Below, in pieces: positions 2,879 to 11,568 of a stretch of 64,000 nt of DNA. The translations under genes were made by a program, and so were the position numbers. Under the pieces are notes generated by a model. That model made no database searches and had not been told where the DNA came from. It worked only from the letters and a program-made list of their open reading frames with translations. Origin of the DNA: a virus; IMG/VR virus record IMGVR_UViG_3300050014_000899; one strand, 5' to 3'. Positions within the stretch are counted from its first letter, which is position 1. Each line of letters opens with the position of its first letter.

Positions 2879-2911
2879 GGAGCTTAAGCTAATCTAGTGA
2901 AAGCACTAACT
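2879..2911 (+). pseudogene. truncated tRNA 5' half (Phe-like D arm)
   Basis: GGAGCTT-AA-GCT-AATCTAGTGAA-AGC then no anticodon or T arm. Confidence 0.45.
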
Positions 2912-2933
2912 CATCTAAATTTCTCTACTTTAT

Positions 2934-3020
2934 GGTCTCAGGAGCTGCTAGGCGTGGCTGCCGGACTGTCACTCCGGAACAGGTAAAACTGACAGGTGGG
3001 TTCGAATCCCATTGAGACCG
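2934..3020 (+). tRNA. tRNA-Asp(GTC), long variable arm
   Basis: ccgga-CT GTC AC-tccgg; T arm gtggg TTCGAAT cccat. Confidence 0.85.
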
Positions 3021-3075
3021 CAACAAATATGCTCGGTAAAGCCTCTTATGATAAATAACGTAACTGAGTACTTAT

Positions 3076-3152
3076 AGGGGTGTAGTTCAAGTGGTAGAAT
3101 AGTGGTCTCCAAAACCAAAGGTTTGCGGGTTCGAGTCCTGCCACCCCTGCCA
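3076..3152 (+). tRNA. tRNA-Trp(CCA)
   Basis: cloverleaf, loop CT CCA AA, encoded CCA end. Confidence 0.92.
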
Positions 3153-3242
3153 GAGATTTAGTATATGTGAAGACTTGAAGGACTTTGGCCCTTGATTTTA
3201 GAGCTTACATACTTTCATGCCAATGAAGGAACTAAATCACAA

Positions 3243-3316
3243 GGGGAATTAGCTCAGTTGGCTAGAGCACCTGCCCTGCAAGCAGGGGGTCACGAGTTCG
3301 ACTCTCGTATTCTCCA
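3243..3316 (+). tRNA. tRNA-Ala(TGC)
   Basis: G3:U70 pair; loop CC TGC AA (C33). Confidence 0.9.
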
Positions 3317-3360
3317 CTCGAGGATGTTCGGCATCATTCAACTCATTCCAAGAAGGTGTC

Positions 3361-3447
3361 AAGTAACGAATGTCTAAGTTAAGTCACAGCGGCCGTACCT
3401 ATAACGGTCAAAATTTCATGCTCGGGCTTTTTTCCGGTTCGTTACTT
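3361..3447 (+). ncRNA. hairpin RNA displaying a 23S rRNA helix-69 mimic
   Basis: closing stem AAGTAACGAA/TTCGTTACTT; GGCCGTACCTATAACGGTC at 3391-3409 matches H69 at 18/19. Confidence 0.6.
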
Positions 3448-3450
3448 TAT

Positions 3451-3523
3451 GCGCTTTTAGCTCAGATGGTAGAGTAGGTGCCTCTTAAGCATCGGGTCCA
3501 GGGTTCGATCCCCTGAAGGCGCA
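3451..3523 (+). tRNA. tRNA-Lys(CTT)
   Basis: ggtgc-CT CTT AA-gcatc. Confidence 0.92.
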
Positions 3524-3608
3524 CAAATGAAAGTGAACGGCGCGTCTACCGTTTAATGATTACCGACAAGTTGAAAAAGTCTTGGGCTATAACAGCTTTC
3601 ATTTATTT

Positions 3609-3684
3609 GGGACGTAGGTCAAACGGTTAAGATGTCGGCCTGTCACGCCGTACGGAGCGGGTTCAACTCCCGTACGTCCCGCCA
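3609..3684 (+). tRNA. tRNA-Asp(GTC)
   Basis: loop CT GTC AC; GCCA end. Confidence 0.92.
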
Positions 3685-3786
3685 ATATGTAGTAAGAAAA
3701 GGGTTACATCGGTTATGATTGGTTCGATTCCAATTTTACCCTGCGAAAGCTCGGGTGAATTAAAGCTCTTTTCAATTTTCTCATAT
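3685..3786 (+). ncRNA. Y RNA (YrlA)-like RNA 1
   Basis: GTAGTAA..GGGTTACATCG...CTC..TTTTCTC scaffold enclosing a T arm and loop-closed acceptor stem. Confidence 0.6.
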
Positions 3787-3792
3787 CGTTTT

Positions 3793-3866
3793 GTCGATAA
3801 TAGTTTAATGGTAGAATATCCAGCGGTAAAACGAGGGAAGGAACCGGTTCGATTCCGGCTAAGACT
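3793..3866 (+). pseudogene. degenerate tRNA-like element
   Basis: D arm TAGTTTAATGGTAGAATA and T arm CCGG-TTCGATT-CCGG, no regular anticodon arm. Confidence 0.5.
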
Positions 3867-3869
3867 CCT

Positions 3870-4019
3870 GGGAGTATAGCTCAATGGTAGAGCAATTGGC
3901 TGTCTACAGACAGAAGTGTCTGAATAAAAACTTTAGGTGAAGTCTTATGAAGTTAAAGGAATCAAAATCCTCTTCATCTGCTAACCAATAGGTTCTGGGT
4001 TCGAGTCCCTGTGCCCCCG
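3870..4019 (+). tRNA. tRNA (Asn-like body) interrupted by a 78-nt insert in the anticodon loop
   Basis: attgg-CTGT[3904-3981]TAA-ccaat; intact D and T arms; G73. Confidence 0.7.
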
Positions 4020-4086
4020 CTAATAACTAATAAGCAAAAAGATAAAAGTTCGAAACTTTTTCTGAATATATAGTAAAAGATATATT

Positions 4087-4806
4087 ATGAAGAGTTGCGA
4101 AAATTGTCAAAAAGAGCATGAAGGAACTTATGGTTCTGGAAGATTTTGTTCAGCTGAATGTGCTAGGGGATTTAGCACAAAAGAAAAACGTTCTTTGATA
4201 AATGAAAAAATAAGCAAAAAAATGAAAGGATCGGGACATTCTGATATAAAAATAATTTGTCCTATATGCCAAACAGAATTTGAAGTTTCATGGAATAAAA
4301 GAAATCAAAAATTTTGTTCACGAAATTGTTCAATGAGATTTTCTAATTCTCAACCAGAAAATATAAAAAATTTATCTTTAAAAAGAATCAACAAAATACT
4401 TAAAGGACAAGTAAATGATTATGGTATAAAGATGATATATAAATTCAAAAATAAGGATATTAAATGCGATTCAAAAATAGAATTTGCTTGTTTAAATTTT
4501 TTTGAAACTAAAGAGGCATCAGAGATGGAAAGATGCAATCTAATTATTGAATATAAGGATAAAGATAAAATAAGAAGATTTAATCCGGATTTTAAAATAA
4601 AAATAGATAATAATATTTATATTGTTGAAGTTAAGAGTTATATGAGTATTAAATCTATAAATGAAAAATGGCGAAATTATAATGAATTATCTAAATTGAA
4701 AAAAGAAGCTTTAATAAATTTTTGTCAATTAAATAACTATATTCCCTTTTGGTTTACAAAAGATTTAAACAGAAATTTTTATAATAATGTTTCGGTCGTA
4801 CTATAA
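4087..4806 (+). CDS. free-standing homing endonuclease, Zn-binding N-terminus plus PD-(D/E)XK (TnsA-like) domain
   Basis: CxxC...FCSxxC repeats; DSKIE...FNPDF...IVEVK. Confidence 0.75.
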   Translation: MKSCENCQKEHEGTYGSGRFCSAECARGFSTKEKRSLINEKISKKMKGSGHSDIKIICPICQTEFEVSWNKRNQKFCSRNCSMRFSNSQPENIKNLSLKRINKILKGQVNDYGIKMIYKFKNKDIKCDSKIEFACLNFFETKEASEMERCNLIIEYKDKDKIRRFNPDFKIKIDNNIYIVEVKSYMSIKSINEKWRNYNELSKLKKEALINFCQLNNYIPFWFTKDLNRNFYNNVSVVL

Positions 4807-4864
4807 TTGGTCAGACTGCACTCTGTTAAAGTGAATAATGTAGGTTCGAATCCTACCCGAAACG
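4789..4864 (+). tRNA. tRNA-Asn(GTT)
   Basis: cact-CT GTT AA-agtg; acceptor GTTTCGG/CCGAAAC; irregular D stem; overlaps endonuclease stop. Confidence 0.75.
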
Positions 4865-4938
4865 CCGCGCCGCCCAAAGGACGGATGCCCTGGTCACACA
4901 AAACCGTATTTGTGCAACTCACCTACGGGGTGAGTATT

Positions 4939-5175
4939 GCCCTGGTAGTTTAACTGGAGGAGGAACATGAAGTTATTAAATGCTCTCAACACTCAGCGCT
5001 GAGATGTTGGTCAAAGAGACATCAGACCTGATAAAAAAGTTAGGGAGGTGCAAAGGCATTTATTAAAGAATGGTGGAATAGCTTGCCATCCAAATTTAAT
5101 TTATGCTGGTAATAGACATTCCGAGAATTCTGGATTCGTTCAGAGGTGTGGGTTCGATTCCCGCTGGGGGTTCCA
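4939..5175 (+). ncRNA. giant tRNA-like RNA (anticodon arm replaced by about 165 nt)
   Basis: 5' acceptor and D arm; 3' T arm gtggg TTCGATT cccgc plus TCCA end. Confidence 0.55.
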
Positions 5176-5261: not shown

Positions 5262-5337
5262 AGCGACATAGCTCAGTGTGAGAGCGCTCCCGTTCATAGG
5301 GAGAGGTGCGGAGGTTCAATTCCTTCTGTCGCTACCA
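5262..5337 (+). tRNA. Met-like tRNA with aberrant anticodon loop GTTCATA
   Basis: full cloverleaf with ACCA end; central triplet TCA, CAT off-register. Confidence 0.55.
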
Positions 5338-5505: not shown

Positions 5506-5580
5506 TGCGATATAGAGCAGTGTTAGCTCGCTCCCGGGAAAAGGGAGAGGTCGGAGGTTCAATTCCTTCTGTCGCGACCA
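5506..5580 (+). tRNA. initiator-like tRNA body with loop GG GAA AA
   Basis: paralog of 5262..5337; GAGC/GCTC D stem; ACCA end. Confidence 0.55.
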
Positions 5581-6036: not shown

Positions 6037-6132
6037 TGCGGAAGAGTGAAACGGATAGAGATTTTAATTAATTTCGCTATCATCCAGGGCTCATAACCCT
6101 CGGGATATTGGGTTCGACTCCCATTTCCGCTA
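6037..6132 (+). tRNA. tRNA-fMet(CAT) with insertion in the D loop
   Basis: GGG-CT CAT AA-CCC; 1:72 mismatch; enlarged D loop. Confidence 0.75.
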
Positions 6133-6249
6133 CTAAAAACAAATGGCAGCACAACACCTAAAGGGACGCTTTTAAGGTAGTGGCCGAAGCATCGAAAATC
6201 AGAAATGACCTGCCGATGTAAAAAACGAATCCGGGCGTTTGTTTTATAT

Positions 6250-6336
6250 GCCGTCGTGCCAGAGTGGCCAATCGGGGAGGGCTCATATCCCTTGGCTTTT
6301 ATAGCCCCATAGGTTCGAATCCTATCGACGGTACCA
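6250..6336 (+). tRNA. tRNA(CAT) with long variable arm
   Basis: gaggg-CT CAT AT-ccctt; GGCT-tttat-AGCC arm; ACCA end. Confidence 0.8.
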
Positions 6337-6352
6337 AATTTAATGTATAAAA

Positions 6353-6859
6353 ATGTATTATACAATTTACAAAACTACGAATAAATTTAATGGCAAGTTT
6401 TATATCGGAAAGCATCAGACTCAGAAATTAAATGATAATTATTTAGGGTCTGGAAAAGCTTTGGAACTGGCTATTAAGAAATACGGTAAAGAGAATTTTC
6501 AAAAAAGAATTATTTTTGTTTTTGATAATGAAATTTTAATGAATCAAAAAGAAAAAGAAATTGTTACAGAGAATTTTATATCCAGCAATACAAATTATAA
6601 TTGTGGGGTTGGGGGAGAAGGAGGAGCTCAATTCTTAAATAAATCTCACTCTGAAAAAACTAAAAAATTGCTTGCTGAAAAAGCTAAATTAATAAAGCCC
6701 TCTAAAGAAACTAGAGATAAAATATCAGAGGGTAATAGAAAAAGAACATTATCTAAAGAAACAAGAAATAAACTCTCTCAAAAATCTTTCGAGAGATGGA
6801 AAAAATTGCGGGTTGGAGAAAATAGTCATCTCATTGGGCTCATAACCCAAGGTTGCTAG
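6353..6859 (+). CDS. GIY-YIG (Seg-like) homing endonuclease with NUMOD3 repeats
   Basis: TIYKTTN..GKFYIGKH...YLGSG; HSEKTKK repeats. Confidence 0.85.
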   Translation: MYYTIYKTTNKFNGKFYIGKHQTQKLNDNYLGSGKALELAIKKYGKENFQKRIIFVFDNEILMNQKEKEIVTENFISSNTNYNCGVGGEGGAQFLNKSHSEKTKKLLAEKAKLIKPSKETRDKISEGNRKRTLSKETRNKLSQKSFERWKKLRVGENSHLIGLITQGC

Positions 6860-6882
6860 GGCGGTACTAGTGCCCGCTACCA
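6807..6882 (+). tRNA. tRNA-fMet(CAT)
   Basis: ttggg-CT CAT AA-cccaa; 1:72 mismatch; overlaps 3' end of endonuclease ORF. Confidence 0.8.
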
Positions 6883-6887
6883 ATTAA

Positions 6888-6999
6888 GCTGTAGTAACTG
6901 TAAGAATTACTTCGTTGAGTTCGATTCTCAATTTTCCCGCCAGATTTTAAAGGGAAAATCGCCACAAAGGGTGGCATTATTCTTCTAATTTTTCTCAGC
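6888..6999 (+). ncRNA. Y RNA (YrlA)-like RNA 3
   Basis: GCTGTAGTAA..GAATTACTTCG, T arm, loop-closed acceptor stem, TTTTCTCAGC. Confidence 0.6.
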
Positions 7000-7055
7000 G
7001 AAAATACATGCCGGATGACCCCCGTTGTATCACGGTGCCGGCTCCAATAAGGTCA

Positions 7056-7128
7056 GATCTCGTAGCTCAGTTGGTAGAGCACATCCCTTTTAAGGATGGG
7101 GTCCTGGGTTCGAGCCCCAGCGGGATCA
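7056..7128 (+). tRNA. tRNA-Lys(TTT)
   Basis: catcc-CT TTT AA-ggatg. Confidence 0.93.
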
Positions 7129-7129
7129 C

Positions 7130-7235
7130 AATCGTAGTAATGGAAAGAGTTACTTCGTGCTAATGGTTAGCAAAATCCTGTTAAGATTACTTCGCGGTTC
7201 AATTCCGCCTGTTACCTCTTCCGATTTTCTCGATT
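7130..7235 (+). ncRNA. Y RNA-like RNA 4 carrying D, Asn(GTT) anticodon and T arms
   Basis: same scaffold; TGCTAATGGTTAGCA, aatc-CT GTT AA-gatt, gcgg TTCAATT ccgc. Confidence 0.6.
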
Positions 7236-7237
7236 AT

Positions 7238-7312
7238 GGGAGCTTAGCTCAGTTGGTTCAGAGCATCTGCCTTACAAGCAGAGGGTCGAGGGTTCGAATC
7301 CCCCAGTTCCCA
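7238..7312 (+). tRNA. tRNA-Val(TAC)
   Basis: tctgc-CT TAC AA-gcaga. Confidence 0.93.
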
Positions 7313-7401
7313 CATAACGTATAAAATAATATACGTTAACTAAGAAAAAGGGACTTAATGTATAATATTTTATCCGTTATGACCCGATAATATCCGATAA
7401 T

Positions 7402-7474
7402 GGTCCGGTAGCTCAATGGATAGAGCACCTGCCTTCTAAGCAGGTGGTTGAGAGTTCGAGTCTCTCCCGGATCA
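7402..7474 (+). tRNA. tRNA-Arg(TCT)
   Basis: cctgc-CT TCT AA-gcagg. Confidence 0.93.
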
Positions 7475-7481
7475 CTAATTT

Positions 7482-7556
7482 GGTCTCATAGTACAACGGA
7501 TAGTGCGCGAGTTTCCTAAACTTGAAATCCGGGTTCGATTCCCAGTGAGATCACCA
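7482..7556 (+). tRNA. tRNA-Arg(CCT)
   Basis: cgagt-TT CCT AA-acttg; ACCA end. Confidence 0.9.
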
Positions 7557-7570
7557 AATAATTTATAAAC

Positions 7571-7804
7571 ATGACTCATACTCTTAAGCAAATTGTTAAG
7601 GGTAATACTGCTCGCTTTTCATATGCATGCGAAGGGAAGCTCTATTACACTATTGAAGTAGAAGAATCAGTATATCAAGTAGAATTGGACAGTACCGCCG
7701 ATGAATGGAGGGCAACATATATGACCCCAACTTTTCCTGCCATCACTCTTATGAGATGGATCAGAAAAGGTATGGAAAATGAAAAATTTATTCAGATAAA
7801 GTAG
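7571..7804 (+). CDS. hypothetical phage protein
   Basis: ORF after tRNAs. Confidence 0.65.
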   Translation: MTHTLKQIVKGNTARFSYACEGKLYYTIEVEESVYQVELDSTADEWRATYMTPTFPAITLMRWIRKGMENEKFIQIK

Positions 7805-7825
7805 ACAACTTTAGGATATTTTTCG

Positions 7826-7833
7826 TATATTTG
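7826..7833 (+). promoter_or_regulatory. Bacteroidota RpoD -7 element (TAnnTTTG)
   Basis: TATATTTG; same motif at 17628, 21190, 30283, 40633. Confidence 0.6.
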
Positions 7834-7837
7834 TCCC

Positions 7838-8269
7838 ATGGTAATTCACGAAATATTGAAGGAACATGGGATTTTTAGTAATGACATAAAAGTCAAAATT
7901 AAAAATGGCCAGATTAAATTAAATGGAGAAGTTGTTACGGATCCTTTAATGGATTTGGATATTGAATTCGTGAAGAAGGAGGACCGGCCTACCAAAGAAA
8001 CCCCTGCATTTGAAGATGCTGGAAATTTTCTTTTCAGAGCAATTAGTAAAGACAAAGAATGTTTTGACTTATGTACAGCTATGGGGGTTGATGGATTGGG
8101 TATTCATCCAGAATTTTGGCCAGATTTGAATTTTACCAACAAACTAGTTGAAAAATTTAGAAAGGTTTATGTCTTAAAGATTTCTAAAAAAGAATGGATC
8201 ATACTCCAGAAAAAAGAAGTTGAAATTGAAACGGAAGAATTTTTAATATTGAAGAAAAATGATTGTTAA
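7838..8269 (+). CDS. hypothetical protein, possible S4-like RNA-binding N-terminus
   Basis: IKVKIKNGQIKLNGEVVTD resembles the S4 motif. Confidence 0.45.
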   Translation: MVIHEILKEHGIFSNDIKVKIKNGQIKLNGEVVTDPLMDLDIEFVKKEDRPTKETPAFEDAGNFLFRAISKDKECFDLCTAMGVDGLGIHPEFWPDLNFTNKLVEKFRKVYVLKISKKEWIILQKKEVEIETEEFLILKKNDC

Positions 8270-9180: not shown

Positions 9181-9571
9181 AGCAAAAGGTTTTTATTGGG
9201 TTCAATATGCAAATTTATCTTGGGTAGTTTGCGAATGGGATGGTGTCCAATGGCATCACCAAGGGGCAAGTTATCCGGATGAAAGTTTTAAACAGATTCA
9301 TGAGATAAGAATTGAGCCTCCAAAACCCAAAGATGTTAGAAATTCCGATGGTATATGGACTCCAGAATGTTTAATTTTTTAAAATGAGAATAATAATCAC
9401 AGCTGAAGAAGCAATCGATAAAGGAATCTGGGAAGATTTATGCGACATGGTCGGATACAGTTATTATGCAGTTAACGAAGGTATGGACCCTGATACAGAA
9501 ATTTCTTTAACAGAGGATCAAGCAAGACAGCTGGGAGTAATACCTGCAAAAAATAGTATTTCCTGGGACTA

Positions 9572-10206
9572 ATGAAAGCATATCACACAATACAGAAATA
9601 TACCGAGGATCACTATGGAAAGTTTGTATGGGCTTTCGATAAGGTAGATGGATCTAATTTCAGGTAGAGTGGGATAGAAAACTTTCAAAGAAAAGCCAGT
9701 TTACATTTGGATTCAAAAAATTCGGGACAAGAACCGAAATGATAATGAACAACAGAAATCCATTTATTGAAGCTGTTACTTTGTTTGAAATGGAATATGC
9801 TCCAAAATTTGACCAGATTTTTAAAGACGCAAAAGAGCTAAGAGGAGTTCCGATAATTACCTTATTTGGAGAGTTTTATGGTCCAGGTAGCTTTGCAGGT
9901 ATGCACGATTGGAACGCTACCCATAGTTTAACATTTTTCGATGCGGCAATATATAAGAAGGGATACCTTCCTCCATCAGATTTTCAAAATCTATTTGGAG
10001 AACTCCCCATACAAAAACTTATTTGGAAAGGAATTTTCAATGAGGAATTTGTAAAAAGAGTAGAAGCCAATGAATTCGGACTTTCCGAAGGAATAGTTTA
10101 CAAGGGCGTTGAAGACGGAGATGTCTTTATGGGCAAAATCAAAACTCTTCAATGGCTCGAAAGTATAAGAAATAAGTACGGTATCAAAAAAATGCTAGAG
10201 TACTAA
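9572..10206 (+). CDS. ATP-dependent RNA ligase-like nucleotidyltransferase, frameshifted near 9664
   Basis: motif I DKVDGSNFR upstream of the shift; LFGEFYG, FFDA, EGIV, MGKIK downstream. Confidence 0.7.
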
Positions 10207-10761: not shown

Positions 10762-11568
10762 ATGCTACCAAGAAATAAAAAAAATTGTGAAAAATGCAAT
10801 AAAGAAATAAGTTTGTCTAATTTTAATTTGCATTATTCTTCATGTAAAGGAAATATAGAAGAAACAAAGATAAGAGTAAAAGAAGAATGGAAATTGGTCA
10901 ACGGAAAATACAAATGTCCATATTGTAATAAAGAGTATTCGAAGAATGGAATTTCTACACATATTATAAGAAATCATACCGAAAAAGGAAAAGGGCAAAA
11001 TCCCAATATTGGTTTTTTAAAGGAAACCCAAATTATTTGGAATAAGGGGTTATCAAAGGAAACAAATAAAAGTCTTGAAAATCTTTCAAAAACATTATTA
11101 AAAAAATATAAATCTGGAGAATTAAAATCCGGATTTAAAAATAAAAAACATAATAAAATATCATGTGAAAAAATGTCTAAAAGTGCTATTCTAGCATTTC
11201 AAGAAGGAAGACATTCTGGATGGGTTTCAAGAAAAATACAAAGTTATCCTGAGATATATTTTGAAAAGGTTTTAAAAAGCAAAAAGTTATTTGAAGAATG
11301 TATCCCTGAATATTTTATTAAACATAAAAACAATTCTAATTATTTTTTGGATTTTTATTTTCCAAATAAAAGGATTAATTTAGAAATTGATGGCTCTCAA
11401 CATGAATTGGAAGATCGAAAAATATCTGATAATCAAAGAGATAATTTTTTATCAGAACAAAATATATTTGTTTTTAGAATAAAATGGAGAAACCCAAAAT
11501 CATTAGATGGTAAAAAATATTTGGAGAATAAAATAAAAGAATTTATTGAATTATACAAGCGGAAGTAG
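10762..11568 (+). CDS. homing endonuclease, Zn finger plus DUF559/Vsr-like nuclease
   Basis: KCPYCNKEY..THIIRNH; YFLDFY...LEIDGSQH..DNQRDNFL. Confidence 0.8.
   Translation: MLPRNKKNCEKCNKEISLSNFNLHYSSCKGNIEETKIRVKEEWKLVNGKYKCPYCNKEYSKNGISTHIIRNHTEKGKGQNPNIGFLKETQIIWNKGLSKETNKSLENLSKTLLKKYKSGELKSGFKNKKHNKISCEKMSKSAILAFQEGRHSGWVSRKIQSYPEIYFEKVLKSKKLFEECIPEYFIKHKNNSNYFLDFYFPNKRINLEIDGSQHELEDRKISDNQRDNFLSEQNIFVFRIKWRNPKSLDGKKYLENKIKEFIELYKRK

What the first reader, a model, noticed from the sequence alone, without database searches (positions are those of the whole stretch)
3361..3447. 23S rRNA helix-69 mimic embedded between tRNAs
Seen: ACAGCGGCCGTACCTATAACGGTC (3386-3409) matches bacterial 23S ACGGCGGCCGTAACTATAACGGTC at 22/24. 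The change within H69 is A1913->C (E. coli numbering). It sits inside a perfect 10-bp closing stem between tRNA-Ala and tRNA-Lys, so tRNA processing would release it. Known: H69 forms bridge B2a and contacts A-site tRNA, RRF, release factors and RluD. Inference: decoy for an rRNA-targeting toxin or ribosome factor, co-induced with the tRNAs.
Basis: partly seen in the sequence, partly recalled or inferred. Interest (0 to 1): 0.8.

Follow-up and report, generated by a model that had tools for sequence, protein, structure and literature searches.

The report
Phage spacer RNA copying helix 69
A giant peat-bog phage carries, between two of its tRNA genes, an 87-base folded RNA whose tip is a near-exact copy of helix 69 of bacterial 23S ribosomal RNA; the copy is real and unlikely to be chance, but it is absent from every related phage I could reach and its function is untested.

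Summary
Observation confirmed. Window 3386-3409 equals E. coli 23S rRNA 1901-1924 at 22/24. The differences are G1903A and A1913C. It is the only strong rRNA match in the window (E about 3e-3 to 3e-4). It forms the whole H69 hairpin at the tip of an 87-nt element closed by a 10-11 bp stem. The element lies on the tRNA strand between tRNA-Ala(TGC) and tRNA-Lys(CTT). The next 26 nt weakly resemble 23S 1936-1960 (shuffle p 0.01-0.03).

The window is a Lak-like megaphage from peat. The tRNA order is kept in relatives, but their Ala-Lys spacers are unrelated. No H69-like sequence occurs in 30 related IMG/VR records or four Lak-type genomes. The element is identical in peat samples of 2018, 2020 and 2025. 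Closing stems are general in this array.

An unrelated 205-kb phage has an exact 21-nt H69 copy in a non-coding region just upstream of a Ro60 (TROVE) gene. The scan reported H69-H71 mimics in phage Y RNAs on other DNA before (e1-5378743, e1-5402323, e1-5406828); I did not check those.

Best reading (0.4): a co-transcribed, excised RNA that displays an H69 look-alike. Main rival (0.3): a neutral captured rRNA fragment.

The parts
3243..3317 (+). tRNA-Ala(TGC), upstream neighbour; no encoded CCA
   Evidence: ARAGORN; Rfam tRNA 65.8 bits; sequence
3318..3360 (+). 5' part of the Ala-Lys spacer, with a small separate hairpin; not part of the stem-closed element
   Evidence: Fold of the whole 133-nt spacer
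3361..3447 (+). 87-nt stem-closed element: a long irregular hairpin with the H69 look-alike at its tip
   Evidence: RNAfold MFE equals centroid, -24.6 kcal/mol, z -3.74, 0 of 200 shuffles fold as well; no Rfam family at E up to 10; no credible ORF
3361..3371 (+). 5' strand of the closing stem (AAGTAACGAAT); holds AACGAATG, one mismatch from the Y-RNA motif GNCGAA(N)G
   Evidence: motif from PMC4201824
3386..3409 (+). Match to 23S rRNA 1901-1924, 22/24 (G1903A, A1913C)
3391..3409 (+). H69 look-alike hairpin: all six base pairs as in 23S 1906-1911/1919-1924; loop ACCTATA against AACTATA
3411..3436 (+). Weak colinear resemblance to 23S 1936-1960 (H70 3' side and H71 hairpin), after an 11-nt gap corresponding to 1925-1935
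   Evidence: Local alignment score 10 against shuffle mean 6.3, p 0.01-0.03 with three different 23S sequences; in the MFE fold this stretch pairs with 3381-3390 instead
3437..3447 (+). 3' strand of the closing stem (GTTCGTTACTT)
3451..3524 (+). tRNA-Lys(CTT), downstream neighbour; its 5' end lies 3 nt after the closing stem
   Evidence: ARAGORN; Rfam tRNA 61.5 bits

Best explanation
The 87-nt element is a non-coding RNA module in the tRNA operon of a Lak-like peat megaphage. It is probably transcribed with the tRNAs. RNase P cleavage at tRNA-Lys and 3'-end processing of tRNA-Ala would cut it out. Its 11-bp terminal stem would protect it from exonucleases. At the tip of a long irregular hairpin it shows a sense-strand, near-exact copy of 23S rRNA helix 69, followed by a degenerate H70/H71-like stretch. 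I propose that it works off the ribosome as an imitation of H69 that competes for something which recognises H69. The ligand is unknown. Candidates are the Ro60-type RNA-binding ring protein that this phage group encodes, H69-directed antisense RNAs, host H69 enzymes or factors (RluD, RlmH, RRF; from own knowledge), or an H69-directed nuclease. Shown here: the sequence match and its significance, the fold, the strand, the position, the lack of coding capacity, the restriction to this lineage, and identity across peat samples. Inferred: transcription, release, stability and any decoy action.
For: The match is the one clear outlier between a whole rrn operon and the window (E 2.6e-4; next best are 15-mers). 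It is G+C-rich in an A+T-rich genome. It covers the complete H69 hairpin. Both substitutions spare the six base pairs. It lies on the tRNA strand inside a fold much more stable than shuffles (z -3.7). The 26 nt after it resemble the 23S segment that follows in order (p 0.01-0.03). The H69 part keeps 22/24 while that downstream segment keeps about 19/26 with two indels and the upstream flank shows no similarity, a weak hint of constraint on the hairpin. The element is identical in peat runs of 2018 and 2020, even though one of those strains lacks 3527-4040. An unrelated complete 205-kb phage, with no capsid-protein match, has an exact 21-nt H69 copy. That copy forms its own hairpin in a strongly structured non-coding region (z -5.6) directly upstream of a TROVE/Ro60 gene. 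This window's phage group encodes Ro60 and carries Ro60-linked Y-like RNAs inside its tRNA arrays, so RNAs with imitation cargo are at home in this setting. No paper describing such an RNA was found.
Against: The element is an orphan. Three relatives (70-80% capsid-protein identity) keep the same tRNA order, yet their Ala-Lys spacers are unrelated. No H69-like sequence with up to 3 mismatches occurs in 30 related IMG/VR records, one of them a complete 405-kb genome, or in four Lak-type genomes. BLAST of the region into relatives matches only the tRNAs. With one sequence there is no covariation evidence. A1913, a universally conserved and functionally central base, is changed to C. Only 1 of 80 Ro60 loci has a sense H69 copy. 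The element lacks this phage group's Y-RNA handle. In a scan of about 250,000 windows a few chance matches of this strength are expected somewhere. The second case (G031) has an expected chance count of roughly 0.04 in IMG/VR by my rough estimate, which is suggestive but not conclusive.
Confidence: 0.4

Rival explanations
1. Neutral relic. A short piece of host 23S rRNA or rDNA (about 1901-1960) was captured by illegitimate recombination into a fast-evolving tRNA spacer. It has partly decayed and persists only because a stable hairpin is tolerated or mildly useful as spacer structure. It has no H69-specific function.
For: The element is lineage-specific and absent from syntenic spacers of relatives. 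Spacers in these arrays turn over completely between relatives and hold other stable-RNA debris such as T-arm-like pieces. The array is in flux between strains: one strain lacks 3527-4040. The flanks have decayed, with an 11-nt gap and about 19/26 identity downstream and nothing upstream. A1913C changes a base that a faithful mimic would be expected to keep. In bacterial rrn operons tRNA-Ala(UGC) commonly precedes 23S (own knowledge), and here the fragment follows tRNA-Ala(TGC).
Against: The match ends coincide with a complete structural unit. Both substitutions avoid the stem, and 6 of 7 loop bases are kept, which spacer structure alone does not require. No other rRNA-like fragment was found in this window, in 130 kb of relatives' arrays or in 690 kb of Ro60 loci, apart from the G031 H69 copy. 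Random capture of rRNA pieces is therefore not common, yet the two captures seen are both H69.
Confidence: 0.3
2. It is specifically a Y RNA: a partner RNA of the phage's Ro60 ring protein whose terminal stem is the Ro60 handle and whose cargo imitates H69-H71. This is a special case of the best explanation.
For: The length (87 nt) and the architecture of a long terminal stem plus internal loops fit the description of Y RNAs in PMC4201824. The 5' strand holds AACGAATG, one mismatch from GNCGAA(N)G. The closing stem shares the 5-bp helix AGTAA/TTACT with this group's Ro60-linked handle (roughly 1% by chance before allowing for post-hoc choice). Relatives encode Ro60. In G031 an H69 copy sits right before the Ro60 gene. 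Earlier scan notes report Y RNAs with H69-H71 cargo in other phages; I did not check them.
Against: There is no match to Rfam YrlA even at E 10. The group's own handle (GTAGTAA, 5-11 nt, TTACNTCG, then a 3' TTTCTC) marks four other elements in this array but is absent here, and the cargo topology differs. No TROVE gene lies in the 64-kb window. None of 33 or so Ro60 loci of this phage group has an H69 copy.
Confidence: 0.12
3. Chance. A G+C-rich hairpin in a structured spacer happens to resemble H69.
For: Only 24 nt match. A hairpin halves the number of independent positions. Matches of comparable strength turn up at roughly the rate expected by chance in the 2.3-Gb phage collection: Vibrio phages at 22/24 with E 0.4, Staphylococcus phage SpP with a 17-mer at E 4. 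The scan covers some 250,000 windows.
Against: The per-window expectation is 3e-3 or lower. The match lies in the roughly 2% of the window that is tRNA-strand spacer RNA. Both mismatches spare the stem (about 0.24 by chance). A colinear downstream resemblance adds p 0.01-0.03.
Confidence: 0.1
4. The feature acts at another level: either as an RNA made from the minus strand that is antisense to 23S H69, or as DNA, a remnant of a homing-endonuclease target in 23S rDNA.
For: Earlier scan notes describe phage small RNAs antisense to H69-H71. Vibrio phages carry a 22/24 match to 23S 1909-1932 on the strand opposite to their tRNAs and genes. The 23S stretch 1913-1938 is the I-CeuI recognition site (own knowledge). 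Endonuclease-like ORFs sit in this array (PD-(D/E)XK at 4087-4806, DUF559 at 10762-11568).
Against: All neighbouring genes are on the + strand. Minus-strand promoter-like hits are no more frequent than in shuffles. An antisense RNA would carry a central mismatch at 1913 and would itself be locked in a hairpin. The right half of the I-CeuI site (1925-1935) is missing, so the site could not be cut.
Confidence: 0.05

Closest known systems
Helix 69 of bacterial 23S rRNA (E. coli 1906-1924; bridge B2a)
   Same: All six stem pairs and 6 of 7 loop bases are identical, as are 4 of the 5 bases before the stem. The orientation is sense. The hairpin is predicted to fold on its own.
   Different: It is a free-standing fragment of about 24-60 nt in a phage tRNA spacer, not part of a 2.9-kb rRNA. 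A1913 is C. 1925-1935 are missing. There is no upstream (H68) similarity.
Y RNAs of Ro60/Rsr, especially tRNA-mimicking YrlA (Chen et al. 2014, PMC4201824; Thermus phage phiLo Yrl1/2, PMC12135203)
   Same: It is a small RNA of 80-130 nt with a long terminal stem and an internal module that imitates a translation RNA. There is a CGAA-containing 5' strand. This phage group encodes Ro60 and keeps Y-like RNAs in its tRNA arrays.
   Different: The cargo imitates rRNA, not tRNA. There is no YrlA model match and no group handle. No Ro60 gene lies in the window.
Small stable RNAs in the phage T4 tRNA cluster (species 1 and 2, rnaC and rnaD); recalled from own knowledge
   Same: Non-tRNA structured RNAs encoded among phage tRNA genes, made from the same precursor and freed by tRNA processing; their function is unknown.
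   Different: No rRNA resemblance is known for them. Nothing was tested here.
rRNA mimicry in ribosomal-protein mRNA leaders (S8, S15, L1, L20 operators); from own knowledge and reviews listed
   Same: A short RNA copies an rRNA binding site and so competes with the ribosome for a ligand.
   Different: Those are cis-acting mRNA operators for known proteins. No ribosomal protein binds H69, and this element is not in an mRNA leader.
Phage RNAs copying 23S pieces reported earlier in this scan (GTPase-associated-centre family; Y RNAs with H69-H71 cargo; AI notes that I did not check)
   Same: They lie beside tRNA genes in large phages and carry a sense copy of a functional 23S element.
   Different: Those are reported as conserved families. 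This element has no homologue in any relative I could reach.

Membership tests
23S rRNA helix 69 (as a sequence and structure element) | 19-nt hairpin with a 6-bp stem (1906-1911/1919-1924) and a 7-nt loop | tested here: met
   3391-3409 forms exactly these pairs in the MFE and centroid folds; alignment
23S rRNA helix 69 (as a sequence and structure element) | Universally conserved loop AACUAUA, including A1913 | tested here: not met
   The loop is ACCUAUA (A1913C). The same 19-mer occurs in only 4 true 23S genes across the metagenome and species-genome collections.
23S rRNA helix 69 (as a sequence and structure element) | Continuous with H68 upstream and H70-H71 downstream, within a full-length 23S | tested here: not met
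   No upstream similarity (p 0.92). Downstream similarity is only weak and follows an 11-nt gap. It sits between two tRNA genes.
Y RNA (Ro60/Rsr partner; YrlA type) | Long stem formed by the 5' and 3' ends, length 80-130 nt | tested here: met
   87 nt with an 11-bp terminal stem; criterion from PMC4201824
Y RNA (Ro60/Rsr partner; YrlA type) | 5' motif GNCGAA(N)G, or the CGAA motif | tested here: inconclusive
   AACGAATG at 3365-3372: CGAA is present but the first G is A (motif)
Y RNA (Ro60/Rsr partner; YrlA type) | Match to the Rfam YrlA covariance model (tRNA-like D and T arms) | tested here: not met
   No hit at E up to 10 in 3300-3470
Y RNA (Ro60/Rsr partner; YrlA type) | Encoded within about 4 kb of the Ro60 gene, on the same strand | tested here: not met
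   No TROVE gene in the 64-kb window (tblastn best E 0.22). Relatives G010 and G023 encode one elsewhere. The rest of this phage's genome was not available.
Y-like RNAs of this phage group (handle GTAGTAA, 5-11 nt, TTACNTCG, then 3' TTTCTC) | The handle itself | tested here: not met
   The regex finds 3689, 5661, 6891, 7134 (+) and 59075 (-) in the window, but not this element. Only the 5-bp helix AGTAA/TTACT is shared.
tRNA or suppressor tRNA (the loop holds CTA) | Cloverleaf recognised by ARAGORN or the Rfam tRNA model; U33 and purine 37 | tested here: not met
   Not called by ARAGORN or by Rfam at E up to 10. The loop would have C33 and U37.
Small stable RNAs of phage tRNA clusters (T4 species 1/2 type) | Non-tRNA structured RNA inside a tRNA operon, on the same strand | tested here: met
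Small stable RNAs of phage tRNA clusters (T4 species 1/2 type) | Accumulates as a discrete processed RNA | not testable with these tools
   No RNA run that holds the stretch was listed
Phage RNAs antisense to 23S H69-H71 (earlier scan notes) | The transcribed strand is complementary to 23S | tested here: not met
   The copy is sense on the strand of all neighbouring tRNA genes

The most novel reading that the evidence does not exclude
Free-standing sense copies of 23S helix 69 are a recurrent phage device, not a one-off. This peat megaphage places one in its tRNA operon. An unrelated 205-kb phage places an exact copy directly before its Ro60 gene. Earlier scan notes report H69-H71 cargo in Y RNAs of other phages. 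If so, phages display the ribosome's central inter-subunit bridge as a decoy or bait. It could steer a Ro60-type RNA surveillance machine, or sponge H69-directed antisense RNAs or nucleases used in phage-host or phage-phage conflict.
Probability: 0.25. Interest if true: 0.8.

Novelty: new variant of a known kind. Interest (0 to 1): 0.5.

Why it matters
RNAs that imitate tRNA (Y RNAs, tmRNA, viral tRNA-like structures) and mRNA leaders that imitate rRNA protein-binding sites are established. I found no published description of a free-standing phage RNA that imitates helix 69. H69 is the ribosome's central inter-subunit bridge and a contact for tRNA, release factors and the recycling factor. If the copy is functional, it would point to a factor that reads H69 off the ribosome. 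It would also extend the imitation-cargo principle of Ro60 partner RNAs from tRNA to rRNA. If it is only a captured fragment, it still records how megaphage tRNA arrays pick up pieces of host stable RNA.

Tried and rejected
1. Exact H69-variant 19-mer in IMG/VR: 0 hits, so the window is not in that collection.
2. The same 19-mer in JGI metagenome contigs and in 185,579 species genomes: 4 hits, all true 23S genes with a rare A1913C. None is the phage element and none has A1903.
3. Closing-stem pattern with a free 50-80 nt interior in IMG/VR: one unrelated repeat array of GTAACGAA units.
4. Rfam at the gathering threshold and at E up to 10: no family for the element.
5. tRNA or amber-suppressor reading (CTA in the loop): rejected. 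There is no cloverleaf, and the loop would have C33 and U37. Partial likeness of 3398-3413 to the anticodon arm of the window's tRNA-Ile(TAT) is much weaker than the 23S match.
6. Terminator reading of 3423-3441 plus the T-run: only a 6-pair, 3-GC consensus hit, no more frequent than in shuffles.
7. Expression: no RNA holder listed.
8. Read-laying. Runs X5 and X6 leave parts of 3351-3432 without cover, which tells nothing. One X6 contig joins 4009 to 3360 through 10 other letters (depth 3.2) and aligns only to about 3391. I could not see its sequence, so I draw no conclusion.
9. Closer relatives through neighbouring proteins. ORF 2281-2625 has no close homologue. Homologues of ORF 9739-10206 at 88% and 72% lie on contigs that give no DNA and are too short to reach the spacer. 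Exact-protein look-ups return only pieces identical to the window from one run.
10. General Ro60-H69 link: only 1 of 80 TROVE loci (G031) has a sense H69 copy.
11. Other rRNA-like fragments in relatives' tRNA arrays: none.
12. Paenibacillus phage Pd_22F hit: a real 23S gene inside the record.
13. I-CeuI target-site idea: the right half-site is deleted, so it was not pursued.
14. No complex or structure prediction was run, because the tools take no RNA chain.

Full report
**What the window is.** The window holds 26 or more tRNA genes in several arrays, all on the + strand. It also holds a T4 gp23-type major capsid protein. That protein is 47% identical to the Prevotella Lak megaphages and 70-80% identical to about 35 IMG/VR contigs, one of them a complete 405-kb genome. 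Public runs that hold the stretch are peat metagenomes. No whole genome is held for the window.

**The observation.**
- The 24-mer at 3386-3409 is as described.
- It matches E. coli 23S rRNA 1901-1924 at 22/24, and at 23/24 for a strain variant with A1903.
- The two differences are G1903A and A1913C.
- In a short-word BLAST of a complete rrn operon against the whole window it is the single outlier (E 2.6e-4). The next hits are 13-15-mers, mostly tRNA T arms.
- The uniform-composition expectation for 22/24 or better is 0.0034 per window. It is lower in reality, because the 24-mer is 58% G+C in a 34% G+C genome.
- The 87-nt element 3361-3447 folds with an 11-pair terminal stem and the complete H69 hairpin at its tip. 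The MFE equals the centroid at -24.6 kcal/mol, z -3.7.
- It does not code and matches no Rfam family.

**Does the resemblance go further?** Upstream of the match there is none (p 0.92). Downstream, after a gap equal to 23S 1925-1935, 26 nt align colinearly with 1936-1960, the H70 3' side and the H71 hairpin. The score is reached by 1-3% of shuffles for three different 23S sequences. The resemblance is thus to about 1901-1960 of domain IV, with H69 kept far better than the rest. In the predicted fold that downstream stretch pairs with 3381-3390 instead of forming an H71-like hairpin.

**Context within the array.** The element lies 43 nt after tRNA-Ala(TGC) and 3 nt before tRNA-Lys(CTT). Other spacers (3153-3242, 3525-3608, 7130-7237, 7314-7401) are also closed by terminal stems. 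The stem is therefore a property of the array, not a device peculiar to this element. Release by tRNA processing is a reasonable inference but is not shown.

**Conservation.** Relatives keep the tRNA order Asp-Trp-Ala(TGC)-Lys(CTT)-Asp-Asn. Their Ala-Lys spacers are 44, 60 and 67 nt, unrelated to the element and to one another.
- BLAST of 3155-3700 into 23 related records matches only the tRNAs.
- A pattern search with up to 3 mismatches finds no H69-like site in 30 related records or in four Lak-type genomes.
- The exact hairpin occurs elsewhere only in four genuine 23S genes.
- Contigs from independent peat runs of 2018 and 2020 carry the element unchanged. The 2018 strain lacks 3527-4040, so the array is in flux while the element stays.
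- Closer relatives could not be reached.

But spacers turn over completely at this distance, so absence does not discriminate well.

**A second, independent case.** A scan of IMG/VR for the H69 19-mer with a free base at 1913 gave one contaminating 23S and one complete 205-kb phage, G031.
- G031 has no capsid-protein similarity to this window.
- It has 21 consecutive bases identical to 23S 1906-1926.
- They form a separate hairpin in a roughly 400-nt non-coding region that is strongly structured (z -5.6).
- That region has a promoter-like site, a tRNA-like acceptor/T-arm minihelix ending in CCA, and a terminator.
- It lies immediately upstream of an ORF with a TROVE (Ro60) domain.
- My rough expectation for such a 21-mer in that collection is about 0.04.

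**Ro60 in this phage group.** Two relatives of the window, G010 and G023, encode TROVE proteins. Just upstream of those genes lies a small RNA with the handle GTAGTAA, 5-11 nt, TTACNTCG and a 3' TTTCTC. The same handle occurs in the window's arrays at 3689, 5661, 6891, 7134 and 59075, and in relatives' arrays. It lies within 4 kb of the TROVE gene, always on the same strand, in 27 of 80 IMG/VR Ro60 loci, against 0 in reversed-sequence controls. These are therefore Ro60-linked Y-like RNAs carrying tRNA-like cargo.

The H69 element lacks that handle. It shares only a 5-bp helix with it and has a one-mismatch version of the published Y-RNA motif. Only G031 among the 80 Ro60 loci has a sense H69 copy. 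Membership in the Y RNA family is thus not shown.

**Other matches.** A group of Vibrio phages has a 22/24 match to 23S 1909-1932 in a conserved intergenic block. It lies on the strand opposite to their tRNAs and genes, and its E-value of 0.4 is compatible with chance. A 17-mer in Staphylococcus phage SpP (E 4) is also compatible with chance.

**Earlier notes of this scan.** These are unchecked AI reports. They describe a large phage RNA family copying the 23S GTPase-associated centre next to tRNA genes, Y RNAs with H69-H71 look-alike cargo, and phage small RNAs antisense to H69. They raise the prior that rRNA imitation in phage stable-RNA loci is real. I did not test them beyond finding G031 independently.

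**Literature.** Full-text searches found no report of a phage H69 mimic.

**Verdict.** The best reading is a co-transcribed, excised RNA that displays an H69 look-alike (0.4). The Ro60-partner version is a special case of it (0.12). A neutral captured rRNA fragment is the main rival (0.3). Chance is about 0.1. A minus-strand or DNA-level role is about 0.05. Function, ligand and even expression remain untested.

Noticed in passing
window 3689, 5661, 6891, 7134 (+), 59075 (-); L087 (G010) and L088 (G023) upstream of TROVE; 27 of 80 loci L094-L173: A conserved RNA handle (GTAGTAA, 5-11 nt, TTACNTCG, variable cargo, then CTCTT...TTTCTC) marks elements in the tRNA arrays. It also sits just upstream of, and on the same strand as, the Ro60/TROVE gene in many phages (27 of 80 loci; 0 in the reversed control). 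These look like genuine Ro60 partner (Y-like) RNAs with tRNA-like or no cargo.
   Followed up: partly
L082 (G031, IMGVR_UViG_3300012943_000001) 6095-6497; H69 copy at 6403-6423; TROVE ORF 6498-8060; tmRNA 4776-5115: A complete 205-kb phage unrelated to this window has an exact 21-nt copy of 23S 1906-1926 as its own hairpin in a structured non-coding region. The region has a promoter-like site, a tRNA-like minihelix ending in CCA and a terminator, directly before a Ro60 gene. A tmRNA gene lies 1.3 kb upstream.
   Followed up: partly
L091 (Vibrio phage PWH3a-P1) and L092 (vB_VpaM_R16F), about 1425-1535 of each locus: A conserved intergenic block of about 110 nt contains a 22/24 match to 23S 1909-1932 on the strand opposite to the neighbouring tRNAs and genes. 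If transcribed with them it would be antisense to 23S. The E-value of 0.4 does not exclude chance.
   Followed up: partly
window 5262-5337: A 76-nt tRNA with anticodon TCA (called tRNA-SeC by ARAGORN, but of ordinary length) is a close paralogue of the tRNA-Phe at 5506-5580. It may be an opal suppressor, which would suggest TGA recoding in part of the genome.
   Followed up: no
window 2934-3021; L069 14391-14478; L070 4085-4173: An 88-nt tRNA with anticodon GTC (Asp) and a long extra arm scores below threshold on the Rfam tRNA-Sec model. It is kept at the head of the same tRNA block in relatives.
   Followed up: no
window 3870-4019 (insert about 3904-3981): A tRNA is interrupted in the anticodon loop by a 78-nt insert. 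Contigs of another peat run join 3903 directly to 3982, so an insert-free form exists as DNA in relatives.
   Followed up: partly
window 3527-4040: A 2018 peat strain that is identical over 2907-3526 lacks these 514 nt (a spacer, tRNA-Asp, a Y-like element and the split tRNA) and has 18 other letters instead. The array differs between near-identical strains.
   Followed up: no
window 9571-10206: The RNA-ligase-like ORF (PF09414 in its homologues) is 155 aa here and about 210 aa in homologues up to 88% identical. The upstream frame has two stops where the homologue has its KIDG-type motif, so the gene may be truncated or disrupted.
   Followed up: partly
window 4087-4806 and 10762-11568: Endonuclease-like ORFs (PD-(D/E)XK_3; DUF559 with a zinc finger) lie inside the tRNA arrays and have partial homologues in relatives' arrays. 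They may be mobile nuclease genes.
   Followed up: no
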